A DNA stretch of 32,000 nt, from contig NC_008312.1 of NCBI RefSeq assembly GCF_000014265.1, positions 7,350,001 to 7,382,000 on the forward strand, written 5' to 3'. Within the stretch, counting starts at the first letter, position 1, and every line of letters starts with the position of its first letter. Position numbers and translations under genes: made by a program. The stretch is from Trichodesmium erythraeum IMS101. GTDB lineage: Bacteria; Cyanobacteriota; Cyanobacteriia; Cyanobacteriales; Microcoleaceae. Below the pieces are notes generated by a model. It was given only the letters and a program-made list of their open reading frames with translations, had not been told where the DNA came from and searched no databases. Below, in pieces: positions 5,870 to 31,319 of this stretch.

Positions 5870-7288
5870 ATGTTAGATTGGATTTCTGCTAATTTTTCTA
5901 ATTTATTAAAAAATATAGATGCTATCATTTTTTATAGTATAGGAGGAGAGCAAGGCCTACCAATTATTGTACTGTGGCTCATTAGTGGTGCTCTCTTTTT
6001 TACTATCCGAATGCAGTTTATTAATCTTCGCGCCTTTAAACATGCTGTAGATGTTGTTTTGGGCAAATACGATGACAAGAATGAGGAAGGAGAAGTTTCC
6101 CACTTTGAAGCTCTCGCTACTGCCCTATCTGGTACCGTAGGGCTAGGAAATATTGCTGGAGTTGCTATTGCTATTAGTGTAGGAGGACCGGGTGCAGCTT
6201 TTTGGATGACCCTCGCAGGTTTTTTAGGGATGAGTACTAAATTTATTGAGTGTAGCCTAGCTCAAAAATATCGCATTTTTCACCCCAATGGTACAGTTAC
6301 TGGAGGACCAATGTATTACCTGTCAATAGGCTTGGCCGATATAGGGCAAAAAAAATTAGGTCAAATTCTAGCAGTAATGTTCGCATTTTTAAACATTTTG
6401 GCGACATTGGGTAGTTCTAGTATATTTCAGTCTAATCAATCTCAAGTTGTTGTTGCCAATATACTACCATTTGTTGCCGAAAAAACTTGGATCTATGGAT
6501 TGCTTTTAGTATTAATAGTAGGATTAGTAATTATTGGAGGTATCCAACGTATCGCTGCAGTAGCTGCTGCTATAGTACCTGCAATGTGTGGCATCTATTT
6601 TTTGGCAGGTTTATGGGTGATTTTATCTAACTTTACGGCTATTCCTAATGCCTTAGCTAGTATTCTTCACAGTGCTTTTATTCCCCAAGCTATGGTAGGT
6701 GGTTTTGCTGGAGCCTTAGTACAAGGGTTCCGTCGCGCAGCTTTTTCTAATGAAGCAGGGTTGGGAGTGGCAGCGATCGCTCATGCTACAGCCAAAACTG
6801 ATGAACCTATTCGGGAAGGTATTGTCGCATTACTAGAACCATTTATTGATACTATCATCATCTGCAACATCACTGCTTTAGTAGTAATTATTACTGGAGC
6901 TTACAATAATCCAGAATTTGCCAATTTTGGTGGTTCTGAACTAACTTTAGCCGCTTTTGCTTCTGTGATTACCTGGTTTCCTTCTCTTTTGACACTATGT
7001 ATATTTTTATTTGCCTTATCTACTATAATTTCTAGTAGTTATTATGGTCAAGTTTCCTGGCAATATTTATTTGGAGACCGGAGTGTAATTATATATAAAA
7101 TTTTATTCTTAATAAGTATTTTTCTTGGTACAGTTATTCAACCAGAAACAGTAATTAAATTCGCTGACTCTCTAAAAATAGCTCTCGCTTTTCCTAGTTT
7201 ACTTGGGGCTTACTTCCTCTCTAATAAAATCGCCAATGACCTCAAAAATTATATGAAACGTTTACAAACAGGAGAAATAAGTTCATAA
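5870..7288 (+). CDS. Alanine/glycine:cation symporter (AGCS) family transporter, paralog 1
   Basis: 472 aa, ATG start, polytopic. Family motifs GEVSHFEALATALSGTVGLGNIAGVA, FSNEAGLG and DEPIREG. Confidence 0.9.
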   Translation: MLDWISANFSNLLKNIDAIIFYSIGGEQGLPIIVLWLISGALFFTIRMQFINLRAFKHAVDVVLGKYDDKNEEGEVSHFEALATALSGTVGLGNIAGVAIAISVGGPGAAFWMTLAGFLGMSTKFIECSLAQKYRIFHPNGTVTGGPMYYLSIGLADIGQKKLGQILAVMFAFLNILATLGSSSIFQSNQSQVVVANILPFVAEKTWIYGLLLVLIVGLVIIGGIQRIAAVAAAIVPAMCGIYFLAGLWVILSNFTAIPNALASILHSAFIPQAMVGGFAGALVQGFRRAAFSNEAGLGVAAIAHATAKTDEPIREGIVALLEPFIDTIIICNITALVVIITGAYNNPEFANFGGSELTLAAFASVITWFPSLLTLCIFLFALSTIISSSYYGQVSWQYLFGDRSVIIYKILFLISIFLGTVIQPETVIKFADSLKIALAFPSLLGAYFLSNKIANDLKNYMKRLQTGEISS

Positions 7289-7522
7289 AATTAATACTTT
7301 TATTTTTTATTTTTCAGGATGAGTAAATCCTCAAAACAACAAAGGTTTAATACCATTTATTTTTTTTTAATGATAAATATTTTGAGAACATTTTTTTCTA
7401 AAAACGTTTTTAAAATTTTTCCTAATCCTGAAAGTGATTCAATGAAATTGCTAAACAGACAAAATTATACTTTTATGGTATATGTATTTAATTAAGAAAA
7501 TAATTTATTGGTAAAGTTGAAA

Positions 7523-9022
7523 ATGAAAAGACAAACTTGGCTATATATACTCCTATTGATATTAACACCAACTGTTGTTTTAGCAACACAACCAGAACAA
7601 GGAGATAGTCTCATAAACATCATCGATCAAGCTTTTTCGAGTTTTGTAGATGTAATATTTAACATCCTCTTCTTTAGTATCGGTGGTTTTCCTTTAATTA
7701 TTTTATGGCTAATTATTGGCGCATTTTTTTTTACTATTAGGATGCAATTTATTAATATTCGTGCTTTTACACACGCCATTGAGATCCTTAGAGGTAAATA
7801 TGATGATCCCGAAGCTCAAGGAGAAGTTTCACATTTTCAAGCTTTAGCAACAGCATTATCAGGAACAGTAGGATTAGGAAATATCGCTGGTGTAGCTGTA
7901 GCAGTGAGTATGGGGGGAGCTGGTGCTGTCTTCTGGATGACGATCGCTGGTTTTTTTGGGATGACTAGTAAATTTATAGAATGTACCCTGGCTCAAAAAT
8001 ATCGCATTGTTAAACCTGATGGCACTATTTCTGGTGGGCCGATGCGCTACCTATCCGCAGGTTTAGCAGAAATGGGGCAGGGAACCTTAGGCAAAGTTCT
8101 CGCTGTATTATTTTCTATCTTCTGTATTTCTGCTGCTTTTGGTGGTGCTAATATGTTTCAGGCAAACCAGTCTTATGGCGCCGTTTCAAATGTATTACCA
8201 GGTTTACCTAGTTGGGTTTATGGCTTAGTGCTAGTAGTTTTGGTCGGATTAGTTATTATTGGTGGTATTCAGCGTATTGGTATGGTGGCAGGTACTCTTG
8301 TACCTTTAATGTGTCTGCTCTATGTTTTGGCTTGCCTATTTATTCTTCTGGCTAATTTTACCCAAATTCCAGGAGCGATCGCTACTATTATTTCTGGTGC
8401 TTTTGCCCCCCAAGCAGTAGAGGGTGGGATTACTGGTGTAATTATTCAGGGATTTCAACGTTCGGCTTTTTCTAATGAAGCTGGTGTCGGTTCCGCAGCG
8501 ATCGCTCACTCTGCTGCTAGAACTGATGAACCTATTCGTGAAGGCTTAGTCGCCCTGTTAGAACCATTTATTGATACTATTGTGGTTTGCAATATGACCG
8601 CTTTGGTAATTGTTATTACTAAGGTATATAATGCTGAAGAATTCTCTGCTTTGCGGGAAGCAAATAAAGGGGCAGAATTAACTTCTGCAGCTTTTGGTAC
8701 TGTTTTGGCATGGTTTCCAGTTCTATTAGCGATCGCTGTTTTCTGTTTTGCGTTTTCTACCATGATTTCTTGGAGTTACTACGGCGAACGTTGTTGGGAT
8801 TATTTATCTGATGGTAAGGGATTAATTATTTACAAAATATTGTTTTTGATTGCTACTTTTGTCGGTTCAGTATCTAACCCATCCTCTGTAATTAATTTTA
8901 GTGATGCTACTCTACTTTCAATGGCTTTTCCTAATATTTTGGGTGGGTATTTTTTGTGTAGTCCAGTAGCAAAGGATTTGCAAAATTATATGGAGCGTCT
9001 TAGAACAGGAGCCTTGACTTAA
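7523..9022 (+). CDS. Alanine/glycine:cation symporter (AGCS) family transporter, paralog 2, with an N-terminal signal-like extension
   Basis: Same motifs as paralog 1 (GEVSHFQALATALSGTVGLGNIAGVA, FSNEAGVG, DEPIREG). The ORF track begins at TTG 7508; the in-frame ATG at 7523 (MKRQTWLYILLLILTP..) is the more likely start. Confidence 0.9.
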   Translation: MKRQTWLYILLLILTPTVVLATQPEQGDSLINIIDQAFSSFVDVIFNILFFSIGGFPLIILWLIIGAFFFTIRMQFINIRAFTHAIEILRGKYDDPEAQGEVSHFQALATALSGTVGLGNIAGVAVAVSMGGAGAVFWMTIAGFFGMTSKFIECTLAQKYRIVKPDGTISGGPMRYLSAGLAEMGQGTLGKVLAVLFSIFCISAAFGGANMFQANQSYGAVSNVLPGLPSWVYGLVLVVLVGLVIIGGIQRIGMVAGTLVPLMCLLYVLACLFILLANFTQIPGAIATIISGAFAPQAVEGGITGVIIQGFQRSAFSNEAGVGSAAIAHSAARTDEPIREGLVALLEPFIDTIVVCNMTALVIVITKVYNAEEFSALREANKGAELTSAAFGTVLAWFPVLLAIAVFCFAFSTMISWSYYGERCWDYLSDGKGLIIYKILFLIATFVGSVSNPSSVINFSDATLLSMAFPNILGGYFLCSPVAKDLQNYMERLRTGALT

Positions 9023-10769: not shown

Positions 10770-11261
10770 TTAAAAACCTAAAGCTGCACGAGTACGAGGT
10801 CCAACAATACCATCTGCCCTTAAGCCAACATCCCGTTGGAATGCTTTAACTGCATACTTAGTCTTATGGCCAAAATAACCAGTTGCACGAGGATGATGAA
10901 AATATCCCATAAGTCCTAGTTGATGTTGCAACTTAGCAACCCTGTGTCCACGGCTACCATGGTGAAGATAATATCCATGACCATGGCGGTGACGACGATA
11001 AGAAGCATGACGATAGTGTGGACGACCATAGCGCCGACCTAAGCCACTACCATAACGATAATTAGGACTACCGCAGCGAGAGTAGCAATTAGCAGCAGCA
11101 GAATCAGCAGTTACGCTAAGAGAACTTAAAATAGTAGCGACTGATAGCAGACCCATCATCCCTAAGCTGGAAAACTTTTTCCAGTCGACTGCTTTCAACG
11201 TGGGTTCAACTATAAAACTTTCTTCGGTGGTAGCTAGATGAGAATATGCTAGTGTTTCCAT
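10770..11261 (-). CDS. Secreted peptidoglycan-binding (PG_binding_1) domain protein with a basic Arg/His/Tyr-rich spacer
   Basis: 163 aa, ATG start. The C-terminus VAKLQHQLGLMGYF...KYAVKAFQRDVGLRADGIVGPRTRAAL matches the PG_binding_1 helical repeat. The N-terminal 57 residues (METLAYSHLA...GMMGLLSVATIL..VTADSAAA) are shared with the neighbouring gene. Confidence 0.75.
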   Translation of the reverse strand: METLAYSHLATTEESFIVEPTLKAVDWKKFSSLGMMGLLSVATILSSLSVTADSAAANCYSRCGSPNYRYGSGLGRRYGRPHYRHASYRRHRHGHGYYLHHGSRGHRVAKLQHQLGLMGYFHHPRATGYFGHKTKYAVKAFQRDVGLRADGIVGPRTRAALGF

Positions 11262-11509: not shown

Positions 11510-11908
11510 TTAGTAGCAGCCACCGTAGCCACCGTAGCCACCACCGTAGCCACCATAGCGACTACCATAGCCACGAGAACCACCGTAGTTACCATAATTA
11601 CCATAGGAACGATTGTAGGAACTACTAACAACTTTTTTATAGTAGTGACCAGAATTACGACCATAGTTACCATGGTTACCATAGTTACTACCATAGCCAC
11701 CGTAGTCACCGTAGCCACCATAACCATAACCACCATAAGCAGAAGCAGAATCAGCAGTTACGCCCATTGCTCCGAATACAGTAGCAGCAGACAGTAAACC
11801 CATTGCACCAACGCTAGATAGTTTTTTAAAGTCTACACAAACAGTAAACTCTTGATTCTCTGAATTTTCTGCGCTATAGGCTAAATGGGAAAATGCTAAT
11901 GTTTCCAT
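11510..11908 (-). CDS. Secreted Gly/Tyr-rich low-complexity protein, paralogous leader to the 10770-11261 gene
   Basis: 132 aa, ATG start. The N-terminal module METLAFSHLA...GAMGLLSAATVF..VTADSASA aligns in the same register (residues 1-57) as the neighbour. The remainder is GYG/NYG repeats ending in GGCY. Confidence 0.6.
   Translation of the reverse strand: METLAFSHLAYSAENSENQEFTVCVDFKKLSSVGAMGLLSAATVFGAMGVTADSASAYGGYGYGGYGDYGGYGSNYGNHGNYGRNSGHYYKKVVSSSYNRSYGNYGNYGGSRGYGSRYGGYGGGYGGYGGCY
11513..11737. repeat. Short-period coding repeat (GGYGG-type, about 9-bp units such as ggctacggt)
   Basis: The plus strand reads ccaccgtagccaccgtagccaccaccgtagccaccatagc... The same periodicity creates the spurious alternative-frame ORF 11497-11736. 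Confidence 0.8.
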
Positions 11909-15378: not shown

Positions 15379-15442
15379 ACTAAAAAAATTATAAGTCAAT
15401 CATTGTACAAAGTTATTTCCCGGATATTTCTTAGTTTTGAAT

Positions 15443-16729
15443 TTATCTAGACATCTTTTGCACTTCACTAAAAACTCTCATTAAGTTTTTACCCCAAATT
15501 TTTTGAATATCTTTTTCAGTATATCCCCGTGCCATTAATTATTTTGTATTTTGTAATATTGGGTATTTGTGAAACATCATTCATTCCAAATACTCCACCA
15601 TCCCTATCTAAATCTAAAACAATAGCAACATGATTAATACTTATAACTTTTACCATGTAATCTATATGGTCTACTACATCAGCAACAGTGGGTTAATTTT
15701 TCAGATATTTCTTATTAATTTGACAATATTTTTCTTTGAGTACTTTTGTTTGTTCTTGGCTTAGTTTTCCATTTTTAAATGCAGCAAGTTTTTGTTCAAT
15801 TTATTTCATTGCTGTTTTTATTTATGGTATTTCCGGGATTTTTTTAATATAGTCATCAAAAATACAATTTTGTACAACTACATCATTTTATTTGACAATT
15901 TTTAAAATTTAATTACTCATATTTTAGGATTTTTTTTCTAGTTATCTAGCACTAGAATGAGATGCAATTACTGGTGCTTTTATTAACTTAATTAAATCCA
16001 AAAATGTATAATTATAGACATGATAAATATCAACCATGATACCCAAAATATTTATTTCTTTGATAACTTTTTTCCCATGGTAACTTAAGCCATTCCATTT
16101 TTGTTTTTGATATGTAGAAGAATCACCAAGCTCATTATTTTGGGTATGAGTTATTATTTTATATCTAATCCCTTGGTGATAGAAAAATTGAACATTACTA
16201 ATATCTTTACCAATTGGATAAGCATTTTCCATGCCCATAAATATTGCCATTTTTATAATTTTATCTAGCAGTTCAGCATCCTGTGCATTTAAGGCAAGTA
16301 AAATTTAAAAAAAATTGAACTCAACCATCTTTTTTGTTATTTTAATCATTTTAATTACTTCCTCTTTTCTCCGCTGATGTTCTTCTTTATTCCTCTATTT
16401 TTGAATAGTAAATATTGACGTAAATACAGCATATAGGCCACTTTCCTCAATTCGAGTAATATCTGACTGACTAATATCAATTCCTCCAGGTTGATGTCTG
16501 ATATTTGGTTGAAAATCAGGATATAAAAATTGATGATAAAGCAAATCAATATGACCGTTAACTGTTAAAAAAAATCGTGTATTTCTTCAGGAGTTAATAC
16601 TTTTTGTAACTGATATTGACTTACTTTAGGAGATGATAGTAATTGTTTCTTCGAGATAGTACATCCATTTACTGTAAAAGAAAGTAAAACTATTGGCAAT
16701 GATAAGACTAGATTTTTTGATAAGTTCAT
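15443..16729 (-). pseudogene. Membrane dipeptidase (peptidase M19) pseudogene
   Basis: Fragments in different frames on the minus strand: N-terminal lipoprotein-like MNLSKNLVLSLPIVLLSFTVNGC; then GHIDLLYHQF; then GMENAYPIGKD..GIRY.ITHTQNNELGDSS..GLSYHGKKVIKEINILGIMVDI.HV...TFLDLIKLIKAPVIASHSSAR (15942-16250); then a C-terminal ARGYTEKDIQKIWGKNLMRVFSEVQ. All are interrupted by multiple stops and frameshifts. Confidence 0.8.
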
Positions 16730-26026: not shown

Positions 26027-26965
26027 ATGAAATTTTTCTGTGCATTCATTTTCACTGCTCTAATTTTTATATCTCTAGAAAAAATCGGCCAGTCATGTTG
26101 CCCTAACCCTATAGTTGACTCTGAACAGTTGACTATTTTTCAGGCAGTTATTCTGGGAATGGTACAAGGTGTGACAGAATGTATTCCAGTTAGTAGTACT
26201 GCTCACCTCAAGATTATCCCTGTAGCTCTTGGATGGGGAGACCCTGGTGTGGCTTTTACTGCAGTTATTCAACTAGGTAGTATTGTTTCAATAGTTTGGT
26301 ATTTCTGGAATGACTTGACAAAAATTACATTTGGTGCATACAAGTCCATAATTACATCAGACTACCAGTCACCAGATTTGAAAATGTTGGTCAGTATAGG
26401 GTTGGGTACTATACCAATAGTATTTTTTGGTTTGTTGATCAAAGTATTTATTCCAGATTTTGATAATTCTCGATTGCGAAGTACAGTAGCGATCGCCATA
26501 GCTTCAATAATTATGGCCTTGTTATTAGTTATCGCAGAACGAATTGGTAGCCGGAAACGTAACTTTGAAAAACTAGATATTAGAGATGGTATAGTAATTG
26601 GTCTAGCTCAAGTATTAGCATTAATTCCTGGAGTATCTCGTTCTGGCTCAACTATTACAGGAGGGTTGTTTATAGGATTAGAAAGATCCACAGCAGCACG
26701 GTTTTCTTTTTTACTGGGCCTTCCGGCAATTACTTTAGCAGGTTTAGTTGAATTGAAAACGCTTTTAGATGAAGGGTTTGGAAGTGTGGGTTTAGTAGCA
26801 ACTCTCACTGGAGTTTTTTCTGCTATTATCTTCTCTTATATTGCAATTTCTTGGTTGATGAGATATTTACAAACTCAGGATACCTGGATATTTATTTGGT
26901 ATAGATTAGCCTTTGGGATATTAATTTTAATAGGGATTATTAGTGGTGTAATAGAAAATACATAA
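26027..26965 (+). CDS. uppP: Undecaprenyl-diphosphate phosphatase (UppP/BacA)
   Basis: 312 aa, ATG start. Motifs QGVTECIPVSSTAHL and PGVSRSGSTITGG, with polytopic topology. Confidence 0.9.
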   Translation: MKFFCAFIFTALIFISLEKIGQSCCPNPIVDSEQLTIFQAVILGMVQGVTECIPVSSTAHLKIIPVALGWGDPGVAFTAVIQLGSIVSIVWYFWNDLTKITFGAYKSIITSDYQSPDLKMLVSIGLGTIPIVFFGLLIKVFIPDFDNSRLRSTVAIAIASIIMALLLVIAERIGSRKRNFEKLDIRDGIVIGLAQVLALIPGVSRSGSTITGGLFIGLERSTAARFSFLLGLPAITLAGLVELKTLLDEGFGSVGLVATLTGVFSAIIFSYIAISWLMRYLQTQDTWIFIWYRLAFGILILIGIISGVIENT

Positions 26966-28209: not shown

Positions 28210-28687
28210 TTAAGACATTGCTTGAATAATATAGTCAAAATAAGGAGCAGTTTCCTTAGCATCCTCTTCATCAAGTAAAGAAAGACTTGCTTCCTTTAAA
28301 CAACGAATCGACTCTACCATTCCAGGAACCGGTACACCAAGAGAGTTATACATTTCCCGAACACCTATCAAACCAATACTTTCAATAGGATCTTTATCCC
28401 CAGCTAATAGCCCATAAGTAATCAAACGCAGGTACCAACCATAGTCACGAAGACATAAAGCACGTTCGCGTTGACCAAAAGCATTACCACCAGGGGCAAT
28501 AAAATCTGGACGCCTGCGCCATAAGTCCTGACTAGCTTTGTCCACAATTTTTTTTTCATTTTCAGAAAGCAATGTAGCAATTTTAACACGCTGCTCACCT
28601 GTTTTCAAAAAAGTATTTATGGCTTCAAGTTCCCCACTACTGGGGTAACGTAATTCATCATCTGCTTTGAGAATAACTTGACTAACT
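28210..28687 (-). CDS. apcD: Allophycocyanin alpha-B subunit ApcD, exon 2 (codon 3 position 3 through the stop)
   Basis: Translation (V)[97 protein letters not shown]...[12 protein letters not shown] is ApcD-like along its whole length. This frame has no start codon. Joined to 31312-31319 it gives a 161-aa protein. Confidence 0.9.
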
Positions 28688-28691
28688 GTTA

Positions 28692-28726
28692 AACTAAGCC
28701 AGATAAGTCACCCTACCCGACTTGTC
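28692..28726 (-). ncRNA. Group II intron domain VI with branch-point adenosine
   Basis: Minus strand: GAC-AAGUC-GGGUAGG-[GUGA]-CUUAUCU-GGCUU-(A)-GUU. This is a continuous helix with a GNRA tetraloop. The unpaired A at 28695 lies 7 nt from the 3' splice site. Confidence 0.75.
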
Positions 28727-30708
28727 TTCAGAACCGGACATGAAACTTTCGCTTCATCCGGCTCCTCTGTTAGAGGTCCCAATTCAAGGGTACATCCCTG
28801 CTTTAGTGTCAGCATATCGTTAACCCATAAGTAACATTCAGGTAAGTCCTGTGAATTGCCTATTAGATAGCTCTTGTGATTTAAAGCAATGTTAGTCTCG
28901 TGGCAATATTGGTGCAACAATTGTTTATTCCTTAGTATGTTGTCACCACCTTTAAACTTAGGTATTACATAGTTTACCTCTATTAGGTCAGTTACTCTAA
29001 AGGTCAATCCACAAAATGCACATTTATTCTTCTGACTTTTGAATAATTTTGAAGTCTCTGTTTTTACCCCTGAATATTTGCCAACTCTGCTAGTCCAATA
29101 ATTCCAGTCACCATCTAGTGTTAAGTTATTATCTTTTACTTTGATGTCTCCTATGATGGGAACATCAGAGTATTGATTTAGCATATATTCGCCCCGCGGG
29201 AGAATCCAATTTCCATTCTCAATATTCGGGAAATACTCTTGTTTAACCCAGGTGGCTGAATTGTTTGGATGCTGTCTACTTGCGCAACACCATAGTCTCT
29301 TCCACAGAAGCATATCCAGTTTGTTGAATATTTTATTAGTACTTACTTGTGTTGAGAAATAGTTAACCCATCCACTGATAGCTGGATTAAGTTTAGCAAT
29401 TAATCCTTTGACTGGTGCAATTTTGTATGAATCAAATCTTTCTGCCAGTTTCCGGTAATGAGTTTTAATACTTCTAGCGGACAATTTAATCAGGGTTTGA
29501 AATCCAAGTTTTGCTATCTTTGCCTGACCTTGCCTCATTGTGAATCCGAAGAAGTCCAATCCAGGCTTGTTCCCTTTATACTCTTCTAGAGCGTTGGCAA
29601 TTCTGGTCAATTCTTGTTTTAATTCTAATCTTACCTGGTTTAACCATTCCTGCATTACGGTTTTTGCTTGCAGTAGTACTTTGATATCTTCCTGTAGAAT
29701 TACGAACTCATCTACATAGTCTACTAGAATTAGACTTTGACATTTCGATTGCCAGCTCATTTGAGCACCCTTTTTATTTTTCAAATCTAGGGTTTTGGCA
29801 AACTCCATTAGTCTTTTCTCTATACCGTGTAAGGTGATGTTTGCTAGCAGAGGACTCATTACCTCTCCCTGTGCTGTATCCAACTCAACCAACCCACATC
29901 TATTTCCGAGAAGGAAGCTGTCGGGGTAGGTGAATAGGAGCTGTTGGGGTGGGTAGAATTGATTATTGTCTAAAACTCTAGACTTTAAACATTGTTTGAT
30001 TAGTCGTCTGTAGGATGATTTCTTAATTTTTCCTAGCAGTGCATCATGGTTAATTAGATCAAATAGATCAAAACATTTGGATATATCAACATCAAGAAAG
30101 TATTTAGATTTATTCTTGATGCTGGTAAAGATGATTTCAATAGCATCATTGGTTGATCGTCCTAGTCCCAAACCATAACTATTAGGTTCAAAGCGTTTCT
30201 CCCACTCTGGTTCCATACTTAGCTTGACCGAGCCCTGTAATGCTCGGTCGTACATTGTTGGGATGCTTAAGGAAAATTTTGCATTTAACCCTTGCTTTAG
30301 TATTGAGACTCTAGGGTTTAGAATGGCTTTCAGGGAATGTGATTTGAGTAGGTACACAAAATTAAAACGTTGCATTGGTGGTAGATTTTTAATACCATCT
30401 ACCCCGACGGTGTTTTTAACTTGATTATCCTGTCTCACCCATCTAACAGTTAGCAACAAAGGGTAATAACTTTTGGTCAGAAGTTTTTGGTATCTAGGCA
30501 TCTTGCGAATTTTGCCACAGCTGGATGCTCTGTAAATTAACTTTTGCAACTTAAATACATTCTTCATAGCCCGCCTCCAGTCTATGTCTCTCCATTTAAG
30601 AGTTAGATTGATACTAACTTGAGACGGTATATCCTCTGTATCCCATGCCACACTTAAAAATGGTTGAGGGTTTCCTAAGTTTCTTTTTAGTGTTTTAGCT
30701 TTATTCAT
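28708..30708 (-). CDS. Group II intron-encoded protein (RT / maturase X / HNH domains) with substituted catalytic motifs
   Basis: 666-aa open frame. RT blocks: TVGVDGI, IPTMYDRALQ, EPEWEKRFEPNSYGLGLGRS, DVDISKCFD(LFD)LINHDALL, AQGEVMSPLLANITLHG, YVDEFVIL. X-domain block LNPAISGWVNYFS. Zinc-finger/HNH block CAFCG...IEVNYVIP..GGD...LLHQYCHE. The open frame runs on through domain V and stops at the UGA in the domain VI tetraloop. Confidence 0.9.
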   Translation of the reverse strand: MNKAKTLKRNLGNPQPFLSVAWDTEDIPSQVSINLTLKWRDIDWRRAMKNVFKLQKLIYRASSCGKIRKMPRYQKLLTKSYYPLLLTVRWVRQDNQVKNTVGVDGIKNLPPMQRFNFVYLLKSHSLKAILNPRVSILKQGLNAKFSLSIPTMYDRALQGSVKLSMEPEWEKRFEPNSYGLGLGRSTNDAIEIIFTSIKNKSKYFLDVDISKCFDLFDLINHDALLGKIKKSSYRRLIKQCLKSRVLDNNQFYPPQQLLFTYPDSFLLGNRCGLVELDTAQGEVMSPLLANITLHGIEKRLMEFAKTLDLKNKKGAQMSWQSKCQSLILVDYVDEFVILQEDIKVLLQAKTVMQEWLNQVRLELKQELTRIANALEEYKGNKPGLDFFGFTMRQGQAKIAKLGFQTLIKLSARSIKTHYRKLAERFDSYKIAPVKGLIAKLNPAISGWVNYFSTQVSTNKIFNKLDMLLWKRLWCCASRQHPNNSATWVKQEYFPNIENGNWILPRGEYMLNQYSDVPIIGDIKVKDNNLTLDGDWNYWTSRVGKYSGVKTETSKLFKSQKNKCAFCGLTFRVTDLIEVNYVIPKFKGGDNILRNKQLLHQYCHETNIALNHKSYLIGNSQDLPECYLWVNDMLTLKQGCTLELGPLTEEPDEAKVSCPVLKTSRVG
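28731..28764 (-). ncRNA. Group II intron domain V
   Basis: Minus strand: GAGCCGGAUGAAGC-GAAA-GUUUCAUGUCCGGUUC. It has the AGC catalytic triad, a two-helix stem with a 3'-side bulge, and a GAAA tetraloop. Confidence 0.85.
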
Positions 30709-31311
30709 TGCTAATCATTGCTTTACATTACGTCTAACAGTGGGTACGTCTGCTAATCTTGCTTCTTACCCAATCCTGCTCTCTCTAAGACCTACGACTA
30801 ACTGTGTAGATTGACCTTGAATGGCTTCCTAAGTTCTCGACCTATAATTTATTCTTAGGTGTCTTAGAGAGTTTTTCTCGTTCCCTTATGCCTTTATTAC
30901 GACTGATTTAGTGGGGTAAAATCTCCCGGAGGGTTTTATTTGGTTGTTGATAACTCCGAGCATATAAAGTTATCCATAATTCCTCTGACATAATGTCTTT
31001 CACTCCATAGCTACCTTTGGAATGGTCTAATTTAACGAGAGTTTGATTACCTTCCTGTTCGTCCACTTGTCAGTCTCTGCTTGGAGTCTCACTTATTTGG
31101 TAGTTAAAGCTTTGACCCCGTTTAGGCCAGCTTCAGGGATTGATGTTCAGTCTCTACCCTGTGGCCTATGCTGTCAACCTAACAACAAGGCGAGAGGAAT
31201 TACACCTCTAAGATCATAAGAGTTATACACAAGTCGGAGGTTGTCCTCATGTATTGACTTGGGGTGGCCATTTATAGCCTGTTTCATGGTTTAGTGGCCA
31301 ACGAGTCGCAC

Positions 31312-31319
31312 ACACTCAT
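31312..31319 (-). CDS. apcD: apcD exon 1 (ATGAGTGT: Met-Ser-Va..)
   Basis: The minus strand reads aataattATGAGTGT|GTGCGAC. The 8 nt before the intron's GUGCG join exon 2 (A GTT AGT CAA GTT ATT CTC) to give MSVVSQVIL, the canonical ApcD start. Confidence 0.8.

What the first reader, a model, noticed from the sequence alone, without database searches (positions are those of the whole stretch)
28708..30708. Intron-encoded protein stays open for 666 codons but its RT and HNH catalytic motifs are substituted, suggesting a maturase-only immobilised intron
Several positions differ from the group II IEP consensus:
- RT motif 5 YADD reads YVDE (29707-29718).
- SYGFRPGRS reads SYGLGLGRS.
- GTPQGG reads TAQGEV.
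- RPLGIPT reads FSLSIPT.
- A perfect 9-bp tandem duplication (tagatcaaa x2, 30055-30072) inserts three residues into the CFDxINH motif.
- The HNH block EVHH reads EVNY (28969-28980), losing the general-base histidine.

The X/maturase block (LNPAISGWVNYFS) and the zinc-finger cysteines remain. The frame is uninterrupted in a locus where several neighbouring genes are riddled with stops.

This pattern would be expected if mobility functions have decayed while splicing assistance remains under selection because apcD depends on it. Organellar MatK/MatR evolved in an analogous way.
Basis: partly seen in the sequence, partly recalled or inferred. Interest (0 to 1): 0.75.

Follow-up and report, generated by a model that had tools for sequence, protein, structure and literature searches.

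The report
Eroding maturase gene in Trichodesmium apcD intron
This is the already-known, actively spliced group II intron in the apcD gene of Trichodesmium erythraeum; its internal protein has lost the residues needed to copy and cut DNA and is drifting in every domain, including the splicing-helper domain, yet has stayed free of stop codons longer than chance would allow.

Summary
The window comes from Trichodesmium erythraeum IMS101. A 2,624-nt group II intron (31311..28688, minus strand) splits apcD after 8 coding bases.

About 85-95% of 108 paralogs keep the canonical residues, as does the mobile T.el4h protein. The intron occupies only the apcD site, and only in the T. erythraeum clade. 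Loss of autonomous mobility is therefore well supported.

The "maturase-only, X domain spared" reading is only partly supported.
- **Recent evolution:** across 12 natural alleles the ribozyme and exon 2 are nearly invariant (1/603 and 0/478 sites). The ORF varies as much as intergenic DNA (45/1830 sites), with 37 nonsynonymous and 10 synonymous variants (dN/dS about 1.0, 95% range 0.5-2.2).
- **Domain X is not spared:** deeply conserved residues are lost at 26% in X and 24% in RT. Seven of 12 conserved Lys/Arg in X are gone.
- **Long-term openness is not chance:** about 8 stop codons would be expected under neutrality (P about 3e-4).

The best reading is a weakly constrained residual splicing cofactor, on the path to the ORF-less, trans-assisted introns of the same genome. 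The intron and its splicing were published in 2014. Eroded-but-open proteins recur in this family.

The parts
31312..31319 (-). apcD exon 1 (ATGAGTGT; Met-Ser-Va...)
   Evidence: Joining it to exon 2 gives [18 protein letters not shown]..., a full 161-aa ApcD. Contigs L011 and L012 carry exactly this junction.
28688..31311 (-). Group II intron, 2,624 nt. Starts GTGCGAC and ends ...TTTAAC.
   Evidence: Rfam Intron_gpII at 57.1 bits and a D5 model at 60.7 bits. Precisely absent from L011/L012. In-vivo splicing is reported in PMC4143802.
30709..31311 (-). 5' ribozyme part (domains I-III and the 5' side of domain IV)
   Evidence: 1 segregating site in 603 nt across 12 alleles, against 45 in 1830 for the ORF (Fisher P=4e-5). 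About 82% identical to the paralogous introns in L010 and L001.
30949..30981 (-). Candidate exon-binding sites: EBS2 AATTAT (30981-30976), and a hairpin whose loop holds EBS1 ATGCTCG (30963-30957)
   Evidence: Complementary to exon-1 ATAATT and TGAGTGT, the latter with two G-U pairs. The homologous loop in L010 is complementary to its own exon 1. Inferred, not tested.
28708..30708 (-). Intron-encoded protein ORF, 666 codons plus stop (Tery IEP, ABG53751.1 / WP_011614065)
   Evidence: Pfam RVT_N 75 bits, RVT_1 78, GIIM 63, HNH 30.5.
29539..30297 (-). RT domain (Pfam RVT_1, residues 138-390) with eroded motifs RT2, RT2a, RT3, RT4 and RT5
   Evidence: 78 bits, against about 155 bits in intact paralogs.
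30055..30072 (-). 9-bp tandem duplication (FDL-FDL) inside RT3
   Evidence: Absent from the 663-aa alleles and from all 108 paralogs.
29881..29952 (-). Insertion of about 24 codons between RT3 and RT4
   Evidence: Gap in 103-107 of 108 paralogs and in T.el4h.
29707..29718 (-). RT5 YVDE (consensus YADD)
   Evidence: In paralogs this position is D in 94 of 108.
29230..29469 (-). Domain X / maturase (Pfam GIIM, residues 414-493)
   Evidence: 63 bits, against 77-87 in paralogs. 9 of 35 deeply conserved residues are lost.
28894..29022 (-). HNH endonuclease domain. CAFCG and LLHQYCH are kept; EVDH has become EVNY (28969-28980).
28731..28764 (-). Domain V: 34 nt, GAAA loop, 2-nt bulge. Lies inside the 3' end of the ORF.
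   Evidence: Rfam, fold, coordinates. Reading through D5 is a family trait.
28691..28727 (-). Domain VI, with a bulged branch-point A at 28695 (8th nucleotide from the 3' end). The ORF stop codon lies in its distal loop.
   Evidence: Fold of 28772..28688: -37.6 kcal/mol, z=-6.8.
28210..28687 (-). apcD exon 2
   Evidence: Pfam Phycobilisome, 183 bits. 0 of 478 sites vary among alleles.

Best explanation
A chloroplast-like (IIB-type) group II intron inserted after the 8th coding base of apcD in the Trichodesmium erythraeum lineage. It has since been inherited vertically at that one site.

The ribozyme is intact, under strong purifying selection, and splices in vivo.

The intron-encoded protein can no longer act as a reverse transcriptase or as an HNH nuclease:
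- RT2, RT2a, RT3, RT4 and RT5 are all hit.
- There is an in-frame insertion and an in-frame duplication.
- The HNH D-H has become N-Y.

The intron therefore cannot move on its own.

The protein is eroding in all domains at close to the neutral amino-acid rate. However, nonsense and frameshift mutations have been kept out for longer than chance allows, at least through domain X.

The most likely reading is a weakly constrained, residual cis-acting splicing cofactor, or one only recently released from that role. It would be an intermediate between a mobile retroelement and the ORF-less, trans-assisted introns that already make up 10 of the 17 spliced introns in this genome.

Shown here: the anatomy, the motif losses, the single site, ribozyme conservation, dN/dS near 1, and the improbability of the open frame. 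Inferred: loss of enzymatic activity, and any remaining maturase role.
For: **Identity and anatomy**
- Window identified as T. erythraeum IMS101; domains, boundaries and ribozyme features.
- Splicing: 337 split reads plus a northern blot (PMC4143802).
- Contigs 100% identical to IMS101 carry a precise intron deletion.

**Motif losses are derived**
-.

**Single site, derived insertion**
- Orthologues occur only in apcD, with conserved synteny.
- apcD is intronless in Trichodesmium MAG_R04 at the syntenic locus, and in Okeania, Dapis and Hydrocoleum.
- There are no relatives between 67% and 93% identity.

**Selection pattern**
- Segregating sites: ribozyme 1/603, exon 2 0/478, ORF 45/1830, upstream intergenic 16/681.
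- ORF variants: 37 nonsynonymous, 10 synonymous, 0 stops. dN/dS is about 1.0, with 95% limits of about 0.5-2.2.
- Flanking genes run at 0.07-0.35.

**Erosion**
- 42 of 189 outgroup-polarised conserved residues are lost. The paralog median is 4 and the maximum 30.
- All four Pfam domain scores are reduced.

**Openness of the frame**
- The elapsed neutral distance is at least 0.074 substitutions per site. That predicts about 8 stops in the whole ORF (P=3e-4) and about 6 in codons 1-500 (P=2e-3).
- Losses are non-random: acidic 0/19, Lys/Arg 13/30. This argues against a pure pseudogene.

**Family context**
- Eroded IEPs recur. One in a dnaN intron is still open, and one in a maf intron is truncated after domain X.
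- Trans-maturase help for ORF-less introns in this genome is documented (PMC4649490).
Against: - Recent dN/dS cannot be told apart from 1, even in domain X (6 nonsynonymous, 0 synonymous).
- Allelic differences fall preferentially on conserved columns (23 of 32).
- X has lost most of its conserved basic residues.
- These three points fit a protein with no remaining function at least as well.
- The stop-codon argument assumes that the ancestor carried the family consensus at the polarised sites, and it uses a simple mutation model.
- No expression, proteomic or biochemical data for the protein were found.
- The IMS101 chromosome could not be scanned directly for extra or ORF-less copies. The genome collection returned nothing from T. 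erythraeum.
Confidence: 0.55

Rival explanations
1. The ORF is already functionless, a pseudogene that has not yet acquired a stop. The intron splices autocatalytically or with a trans-acting maturase from an intact paralogous intron protein in the same genome.
For: - dN/dS is about 1.0 over the whole ORF and in domain X.
- The ORF varies as much as intergenic DNA.
- Erosion is equal across domains, and the basic residues of X are lost.
- Intact paralogs exist in IMS101, for example P0028 at 61% identity with all motifs canonical.
- 10 of 17 spliced introns in IMS101 lack an ORF, and trans assistance has been shown heterologously (PMC4649490).
Against: - Given at least 0.074 neutral substitutions per site elapsed, about 8 stop codons are expected and none is seen (P about 3e-4).
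- Both indels are in frame.
- All 12 alleles are open.
- Residue losses are non-random, with 0 of 19 acidic residues lost.
Confidence: 0.3
2. The strict MatK-like model proposed by the first reader. Mobility domains decay freely, while domain X stays under domain-specific purifying selection because apcD expression depends on this maturase.
For: - The X signature LNPAISGWVNYFS is kept.
- GIIM keeps about 75% of the paralog score, against 50% for RVT_1.
- Other eroded paralogs also keep this motif, and their truncations fall after X.
- Openness of codons 1-500 is significant, while that of 501-666 is not.
Against: - X loses deeply conserved residues as fast as RT: 26% versus 24%, Fisher P=1.
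- 7 of 12 conserved Lys/Arg in X are lost, and its net charge is the lowest in the family.
- Recent X variants are 6 nonsynonymous and 0 synonymous. They hit L440, R478 and K483.
Confidence: 0.15
3. The frame is kept open because translation of the long domain IV insert matters, not the protein it makes. For example, ribosomes might shield the 2-kb RNA upstream of D5/D6 and exon 2 from nucleases, or might time ribozyme folding.
For: - The unusual combination of dN/dS near 1 with strong avoidance of stops.
- The ORF runs through D5 into D6.
Against: - Paralogous introns with truncated or absent ORFs persist in host genes, and ORF-less ones splice (PMC4143802).
- There is no direct evidence for this mechanism. 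It is pure inference.
Confidence: 0.07
4. The protein is still an active RT/endonuclease, and the intron is still mobile.
For: - All four Pfam domains score above their thresholds.
- The RT3 Asp and the first RT5 Asp are kept.
Against: - There are simultaneous hits in RT2, RT2a, RT3, RT4 and RT5, plus two insertions.
- The HNH general-base His is replaced by Tyr.
- There is only one genomic site and no near-identical copies in the searched data.
Confidence: 0.03

Closest known systems
O.i.I2 of Oceanobacillus iheyensis (radC intron). The 2015 review PMC4424553 cites it as the only known bacterial intron with a degenerate but open IEP.
   Same: - A bacterial group II intron in a host gene.
- The IEP lacks YADD and other RT motifs, yet has no stop codons.
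- A maturase role is inferred from the open frame.
   Different: - A different class (ML versus chloroplast-like, with an HNH domain).
- A different phylum and host gene.
- Here population data show dN/dS near 1 and domain X eroding too.
MatK (plant chloroplast trnK intron) and MatR (plant mitochondrial nad1 intron 4)
   Same: - RT-derived proteins that have lost RT catalytic motifs.
- They sit in vertically inherited, immobile introns of needed genes.
   Different: - According to the review, MatK keeps a clearly conserved domain X, has lost alignability of RT0-4, and serves several introns.
- The Trichodesmium protein is still alignable throughout, is much younger, and its X is not preferentially conserved.
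ORF-less T. erythraeum introns (dnaN, nrdJ, thyX and others) spliced with trans-acting intron proteins (Meng et al. 2005, as cited in PMC4143802 and PMC4649490)
   Same: - The same genome and the same habit of sitting in housekeeping genes.
- This is the probable end-state of the decay seen here.
- It supplies a plausible source of trans help.
   Different: - Those introns have lost the ORF altogether.
- The apcD intron still carries a full-length open frame.
T.el4h intron protein of Thermosynechococcus (PDB 6ME0 chain C), an active and mobile IIB intron RT
   Same: - The closest solved relative (E=3e-64).
- The same RT0-RT7 / X / D / HNH architecture.
   Different: - T.el4h has RPLGIPT, GTPQGG, YADD and EIHH, and it is mobile (PMC2882425).
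- The apcD protein has all of these substituted.
Eroded paralogs in the same Trichodesmium/Okeania IEP family, for example P0099 in a dnaN intron (L016-L018) and the maf intron of Trichodesmium MAG_R04 (L010)
   Same: - Dead or damaged RT5, RT4 or RT2 motifs.
- Residence in housekeeping genes.
- The X motif is retained.
   Different: - The apcD protein is the most eroded full-length member: 67 of 300 conserved columns lost, against at most 44 elsewhere.
- Several of the others are truncated after X.

Membership tests
Group II intron ribozyme | 5' GUGYG start and 3' AY end | tested here: met
   The intron starts GTGCG at 31311 and ends ...AAC at 28688.
Group II intron ribozyme | Domain V: a 34-nt hairpin with a 2-nt bulge and a GNRA loop | tested here: met
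   Rfam D5 model at 60.7 bits and Intron_gpII at 57.1 bits. The fold shows the bulged hairpin with a GAAA loop.
Group II intron ribozyme | Domain VI with a bulged branch-point adenosine 7-8 nt from the 3' splice site | tested here: met
   A single bulged A at 28695, the 8th nucleotide from the 3' end.
Group II intron ribozyme | Exact excision that joins the exons in frame | tested here: met
   The spliced ORF gives a full 161-aa ApcD. L011 and L012 carry the exact junction. The published split reads and northern blot agree (PMC4143802).
Group II intron ribozyme | EBS1/EBS2 to IBS1/IBS2 pairing | tested here: inconclusive
   Candidates were found: AATTAT with ATAATT, and ATGCTCG with TGAGTGT (two G-U pairs). 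The homologous loop in L010 supports the assignment. No full domain I structure was modelled.
Group II intron-encoded RT/maturase/endonuclease (active, mobile form) | Domain order RT0-7, X, D, HNH | tested here: met
   Pfam RVT_N, RVT_1, GIIM and HNH all score above their cut-offs. The protein aligns with 6ME0_C over residues 34-605.
Group II intron-encoded RT/maturase/endonuclease (active, mobile form) | RT active site (RT3 Asp plus RT5 YxDD) and dNTP/template motifs RT2, RT2a and RT4 | tested here: not met
   YVDE, AQGE, FSLSIPT and SYGLGLGRS, plus a 3-aa duplication in RT3 and a roughly 24-aa insertion.
Group II intron-encoded RT/maturase/endonuclease (active, mobile form) | The catalytic His of the HNH motif | tested here: not met
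   EVDH has become EVNY. 91 of 108 paralogs keep D-H.
Group II intron-encoded RT/maturase/endonuclease (active, mobile form) | Several near-identical copies, or occupied and empty homing sites | tested here: not met
   Only the apcD site was seen, in 12 loci. No relatives fall between 67% and 93% identity. The IMS101 chromosome itself could not be scanned.
Degenerate maturase-only IEP (MatK / MatR / O.i.I2 type) | RT catalytic motifs lost while the ORF stays open | tested here: met
   All 12 alleles are open. P(open by chance) is about 3e-4.
Degenerate maturase-only IEP (MatK / MatR / O.i.I2 type) | Domain X preferentially conserved, under purifying selection | tested here: inconclusive
   - The X motif and the GIIM score are relatively better kept.
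- But X loses 26% of deeply conserved residues against 24% in RT, and recent X variants are 6 nonsynonymous to 0 synonymous.
- The overall dN/dS lower bound is about 0.5.
Degenerate maturase-only IEP (MatK / MatR / O.i.I2 type) | The host gene needs the intron to be spliced | tested here: met
   The intron splits codon 3 of apcD. Exon 2 is invariant among alleles, and dN/dS against MAG_R04 is 0.12.
Degenerate maturase-only IEP (MatK / MatR / O.i.I2 type) | Demonstrated maturase (splicing-promoting) activity | not testable with these tools
   This needs splicing assays with and without the protein.

The most novel reading that the evidence does not exclude
The frame is held open by selection that acts on something other than the conserved protein sequence. 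One option is that translation through domain IV into D5/D6 is needed for the stability or folding of the apcD pre-mRNA. Another is that the protein is being directionally disarmed: conserved Lys/Arg are lost steadily, 13 of 30, while conserved acidic residues are lost 0 of 19. The product would then be a harmless, weakly binding scaffold. Either way, this would be a bacterial snapshot of how a retroelement protein is domesticated or discarded once its intron becomes a fixed part of a host gene.
Probability: 0.12. Interest if true: 0.7.

Novelty: new member of a known kind. Interest (0 to 1): 0.42.

Why it matters
Group II introns are the presumed ancestors of spliceosomal introns. The step from a selfish mobile element to a fixed, host-dependent intron is known mainly from organelles.

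A 2015 review listed one bacterial intron protein that is degenerate yet still open. The Trichodesmium apcD intron is a second case, and it has natural allelic series. Relatives in dnaN and maf show that the process is repeated within one genus.

The population data make the process measurable. The ribozyme is frozen, and the protein drifts at about the neutral rate, yet stop codons are excluded.

The practical value is modest. The public apcD annotations are truncated or start in the wrong place. The intron and its splicing were already published.

Tried and rejected
- **Genome collection scan with the IEP.** It returned only one paralogous locus, L010, in maf of Trichodesmium MAG_R04. Nothing came back from T. 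erythraeum itself, so copy number in IMS101 could not be measured directly.
- **Two metagenome-collection scans.** One used an EBS-region DNA pattern and one used the IEP protein. Both found nothing.
- **Look-up of the intact IMS101 paralog P0028.** There was no record. The domain IVa comparison with a candidate trans-maturase intron could not be made.
- **Possible broken alleles.** P0125 (158 aa) and P0126 (523 aa) are contig-end truncations.
- **L001.** It first looked like a second insertion site. Its 5' 900 nt belong to a paralogous intron, preceded by another intron's D5, and it is a single metagenome scaffold. This is most likely an assembly chimera.
- **The C-terminal extension through D5.** I considered it as a stop-loss. 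Rejected, because many paralogs, including intact ones, end at the same ...KVSRPVLKTSRVG.
- **A plastid origin.** The low G+C suggested it. Rejected, because the gene content and exact protein matches identify T. erythraeum IMS101.
- **Rfam E-value scan.** It gave no domain I-IV family hit, so the class assignment rests on IEP similarity to T.el4h only.
- **Literature search for the two SRA runs behind L011/L012.** It found nothing, so whether they derive from RNA or DNA is inferred.
- **First stop-codon simulation.** It timed out and was replaced by an analytic estimate.
Full report
**What the locus is**

The window is from Trichodesmium erythraeum IMS101. Six window proteins are exact matches to IMS101 entries. 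The 666-aa ORF is ABG53751.1/WP_011614065 ("Group II intron, maturase-specific"), and the 132-aa phycobilisome ORF is ABG53750.1.

On the minus strand, apcD starts at 31319 with ATGAGTGT. A group II intron runs from 31311 (GTGCGAC...) to 28688 (...TTTAAC), 2,624 nt. Exon 2 runs from 28687 to 28210. Joining the exons gives a complete 161-aa Apc[19 protein letters not shown]....

The ribozyme features are canonical:
- Rfam finds D5/D6 (60.7 and 57.1 bits).
- D5 (28764-28731) folds as a bulged hairpin with a GAAA loop.
- D6 (28727-28691) carries one bulged A at 28695, eight nucleotides from the 3' end.

The ORF (30708-28708) lies in domain IV and reads through D5 into the D6 loop. This overlap is a trait of the whole protein family, not a stop-loss specific to this copy.

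**What was already published**

Pfreundt et al. [quoted passage not shown] They show 337 split reads and a northern blot with precursor, intermediates and mature mRNA.

Independently, two Logan contigs (L011, L012) are 100% identical to the window over 689 and 5,478/3,132 nt of flank. They lack exactly 31311..28688. They are most simply RNA-derived assemblies of the spliced message, although I could not verify the library type.

**Checking the observation**

Alignment with the solved, mobile T.el4h intron protein (6ME0_C, E=3e-64) puts them opposite these canonical motifs:

| Canonical motif | This protein |
|---|---|
| RPLGIPT | FSLSIPT |
| NSYGFRQGR | SYGLGLGRS |
| CFD-NISH | CFDLFDLINH |
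| GTPQGG | DTAQGE |
| YADDFVV | YVDEFVI |
| EIHHILP | EVNYVIP |

I add a roughly 24-residue insertion just before RT4 (29952-29881).

I aligned 108 paralogs of 59-67% identity from Okeania, Trichodesmium, Dapis and Hydrocoleum.
- The canonical residue is present in about 85-95% at each of these positions.
- 92 of 108 keep the RT3 Asp plus YxDD.
- 91 keep D-H in the HNH motif.

The family consensus at the HNH motif is EVDH rather than EVHH.

The changes are therefore derived in this lineage.

**Orthologues and age**

The 90%-identity cluster has 38 members from T. erythraeum strains and MAGs. I recovered DNA for eleven more alleles (L001-L009, L014, L015). All lie in the same TRAM-methyltransferase / apcD / uppP / DUF3120 context.

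Between 93% and 67% identity there is nothing in 5.8 billion proteins.

apcD is uninterrupted (161 aa) in Trichodesmium MAG_R04 at the syntenic locus (L013), and in Okeania, Dapis and Hydrocoleum. By parsimony the intron entered apcD on the T. erythraeum branch. Synonymous divergence between the two Trichodesmium clades is 0.335, or about 0.17 per lineage. This bounds the residence time.

No second site was seen. However, the IMS101 chromosome itself could not be scanned.

**Selection, recent**

Segregating sites across the 12 alleles:

| Region | Segregating sites |
|---|---|
| Upstream intergenic | 16/681 |
| 5' ribozyme | 1/603 |
| ORF codons 1-610 | 45/1830 |
| ORF tail plus D5/D6 | 2/191 |
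| apcD exon 2 | 0/478 |

The ribozyme and the exon are each significantly less variable than the ORF (Fisher P about 4e-5). The ORF is as variable as intergenic DNA.

ORF variants are 37 nonsynonymous, 10 synonymous and 0 nonsense. With 1,569 nonsynonymous and 420 synonymous sites, this gives dN/dS of about 1.0, with 95% limits of roughly 0.5-2.2.

Flanking genes in the same genome pairs give 0.07-0.35. The exception is uppP, which rests on very few changes.

Domain X shows 6 nonsynonymous and 0 synonymous differences. They hit L440, R478 and K483, which are conserved in more than 98% of paralogs.

The two allele classes have each lost different consensus residues. The 9-bp duplication exists only in the 666-aa class. 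Erosion is therefore ongoing.

**Selection, long term**

I took columns that are at least 90% conserved in paralogs and identical in the T.el4h outgroup (189 columns).
- The apcD protein has lost 42 of them (22%).
- The median paralog has lost 4, and the worst 30.
- By domain: RT0 15%, RT 24%, X 26%, D 25%, En 13%.

X is therefore not spared.

Pfam scores fall in all four domains:

| Pfam domain | apcD IEP (bits) | Intact paralogs (bits) |
|---|---|---|
| RVT_1 | 78 | about 155 |
| RVT_N | 75 | about 110 |
| GIIM | 63 | 77-87 |
| HNH | 30 | 47-51 |

GIIM falls least.

The 33 losses shared by both allele classes imply at least 0.074 neutral substitutions per site elapsed. About 5.6% of random substitutions in this ORF create a stop. 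On that basis:
- About 8 stops are expected over the whole ORF (P=3e-4).
- About 6 are expected in codons 1-500 (P=2e-3).
- About 2 are expected in codons 501-666 (P=0.13).

Both indels are in frame.

So nonsense mutations have been excluded, at least through domain X, even though amino-acid constraint is weak.

The losses are also non-random:
- Lys/Arg 13/30 lost.
- Gly/Pro 12/30 lost.
- Acidic residues 0/19 lost.
- In X, 7 of 12 conserved basic residues are gone. Its net charge is +12 against a family median of +20.

I have no firm explanation for this charge trend.

**Family context**

Sixteen of the 108 paralogs also lack an intact RT active site. All of them keep the X signature LNPxIxGWxNYFS, and several are truncated just after X.
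- One, P0099 (YADH, D-Y), sits in a dnaN intron on Tara contigs.
- The maf intron of Trichodesmium MAG_R04 (L010) has a 508-aa truncated protein with a damaged RT4.
- Its ribozyme is about 82% identical to the apcD ribozyme, while the proteins are 54% identical.

In IMS101, 10 of 17 spliced introns have no ORF, and trans-acting maturase help has been shown heterologously (PMC4649490). In Thermosynechococcus, driver proteins splice and mobilise ORF-less relatives (PMC2882425).

**Interpretation**

Loss of reverse transcriptase and endonuclease function, and therefore of autonomous mobility, is well supported by sequence. It remains an inference until assayed.

That step says a maturase is preserved by selection because apcD needs it.
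- The open frame is unlikely to be an accident.
- The X motif survives.
- But X erodes as fast as RT.
- Recent evolution looks neutral.
- Helpers exist in trans.

I therefore favour a weakly constrained residual splicing cofactor, or one just released from that role. It would be an intermediate on the way to the ORF-less state (confidence 0.55). A functionless ORF is the main rival (0.3).

**Novelty**

The intron and its splicing are known. Degenerate-but-open intron proteins are a known kind: MatK, MatR, and in bacteria O.i.I2, which Zimmerly and Semper 2015 called the only known bacterial example (PMC4424553).

I found no paper describing the erosion of this particular protein.

It is a new member of a known kind. 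The useful extra is that natural alleles quantify the decay.

Noticed in passing
L011 4042-4527 and L012 1296-1781 (Logan SRR15346328, SRR3181813): These contigs are 100% identical to the IMS101 window on both sides but lack the intron precisely. They are probably assemblies of spliced RNA. If the libraries are DNA, an intron-less apcD allele exists in IMS101 cultures.
   Followed up: partly
L001 1-900 (ENA WILS17-1 scaffold_6551): The scaffold carries the apcD IEP and exon 2. Its 5' 900 nt come from a paralogous intron (about 80% identical in domain I), preceded by another intron's D5. This is likely an assembly chimera between related introns. A real recombinant is not excluded.
   Followed up: partly
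L016 361-2205, L017, L018 (Tara and other marine metagenomes): Paralog P0099 (614 aa; RT5 YADH, HNH D-Y; 37 of 300 conserved columns lost) is still open. It sits in an intron of dnaN, so this is a second eroded-but-open intron protein in an essential gene.
   Followed up: partly
L010 3405-5940 (Trichodesmium sp. MAG_R04): A paralogous intron interrupts a Maf-like gene. Its protein is cut to 508 aa after domain X, and RT2 and RT4 are damaged (KPSLSIQT, GTIKGW). It has an insertion at the same place as the apcD protein's insertion.
   Followed up: partly
window 28708-30708 (protein level): Erosion is charge-biased. 13 of 30 deeply conserved Lys/Arg are lost, but 0 of 19 conserved Asp/Glu. The IMS101 allele has lost about 5 more consensus Lys/Arg than the 663-aa allele. 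This is unexplained; it could be directional selection or a strand-specific A->G mutation bias.
   Followed up: partly
window about 15400-16500, minus strand: Fragments of a peptidase-M19-like membrane dipeptidase (…APVIASHSSAR*…, …VADVVDHIDYMVKVISINHVAIVLDLDRDGG…) are interrupted by several stops. This is a pseudogene. The family was assigned by eye from the six-frame translation, with no profile search.
   Followed up: partly
window 28210-28608 and MAG annotations (L002 5996-6490): Public annotations of apcD are wrong at the 5' end. IMS101 has a 132-aa ORF from an internal TTG. MAGs have a 164-aa ORF that starts inside intron domain VI. The 8-nt exon 1 is missing from both.
   Followed up: yes
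window 30908-31066, minus strand (also L002 3643-3801): A 52-aa ORF inside ribozyme domain I is called as a gene in several MAGs. It is almost certainly spurious.
   Followed up: no
window 26027-26965 (uppP): uppP shows 7.5 nonsynonymous against 1.5 synonymous differences between T. erythraeum-clade alleles, unlike the other flanking genes. The counts are small and this was not pursued.
   Followed up: no
window 10770-11261 and 11510-11908, minus strand: Two adjacent small ORFs share the N-terminus METLA(Y/F)SHLA.... They have Gly/Tyr/Arg/His-rich low-complexity bodies, and one ends in what looks by eye like a peptidoglycan-binding motif. Function is unknown.
   Followed up: no
window 5870-7288 and 7508-9022, plus strand: Tandem paralogous alanine:cation symporter genes.
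   Followed up: no
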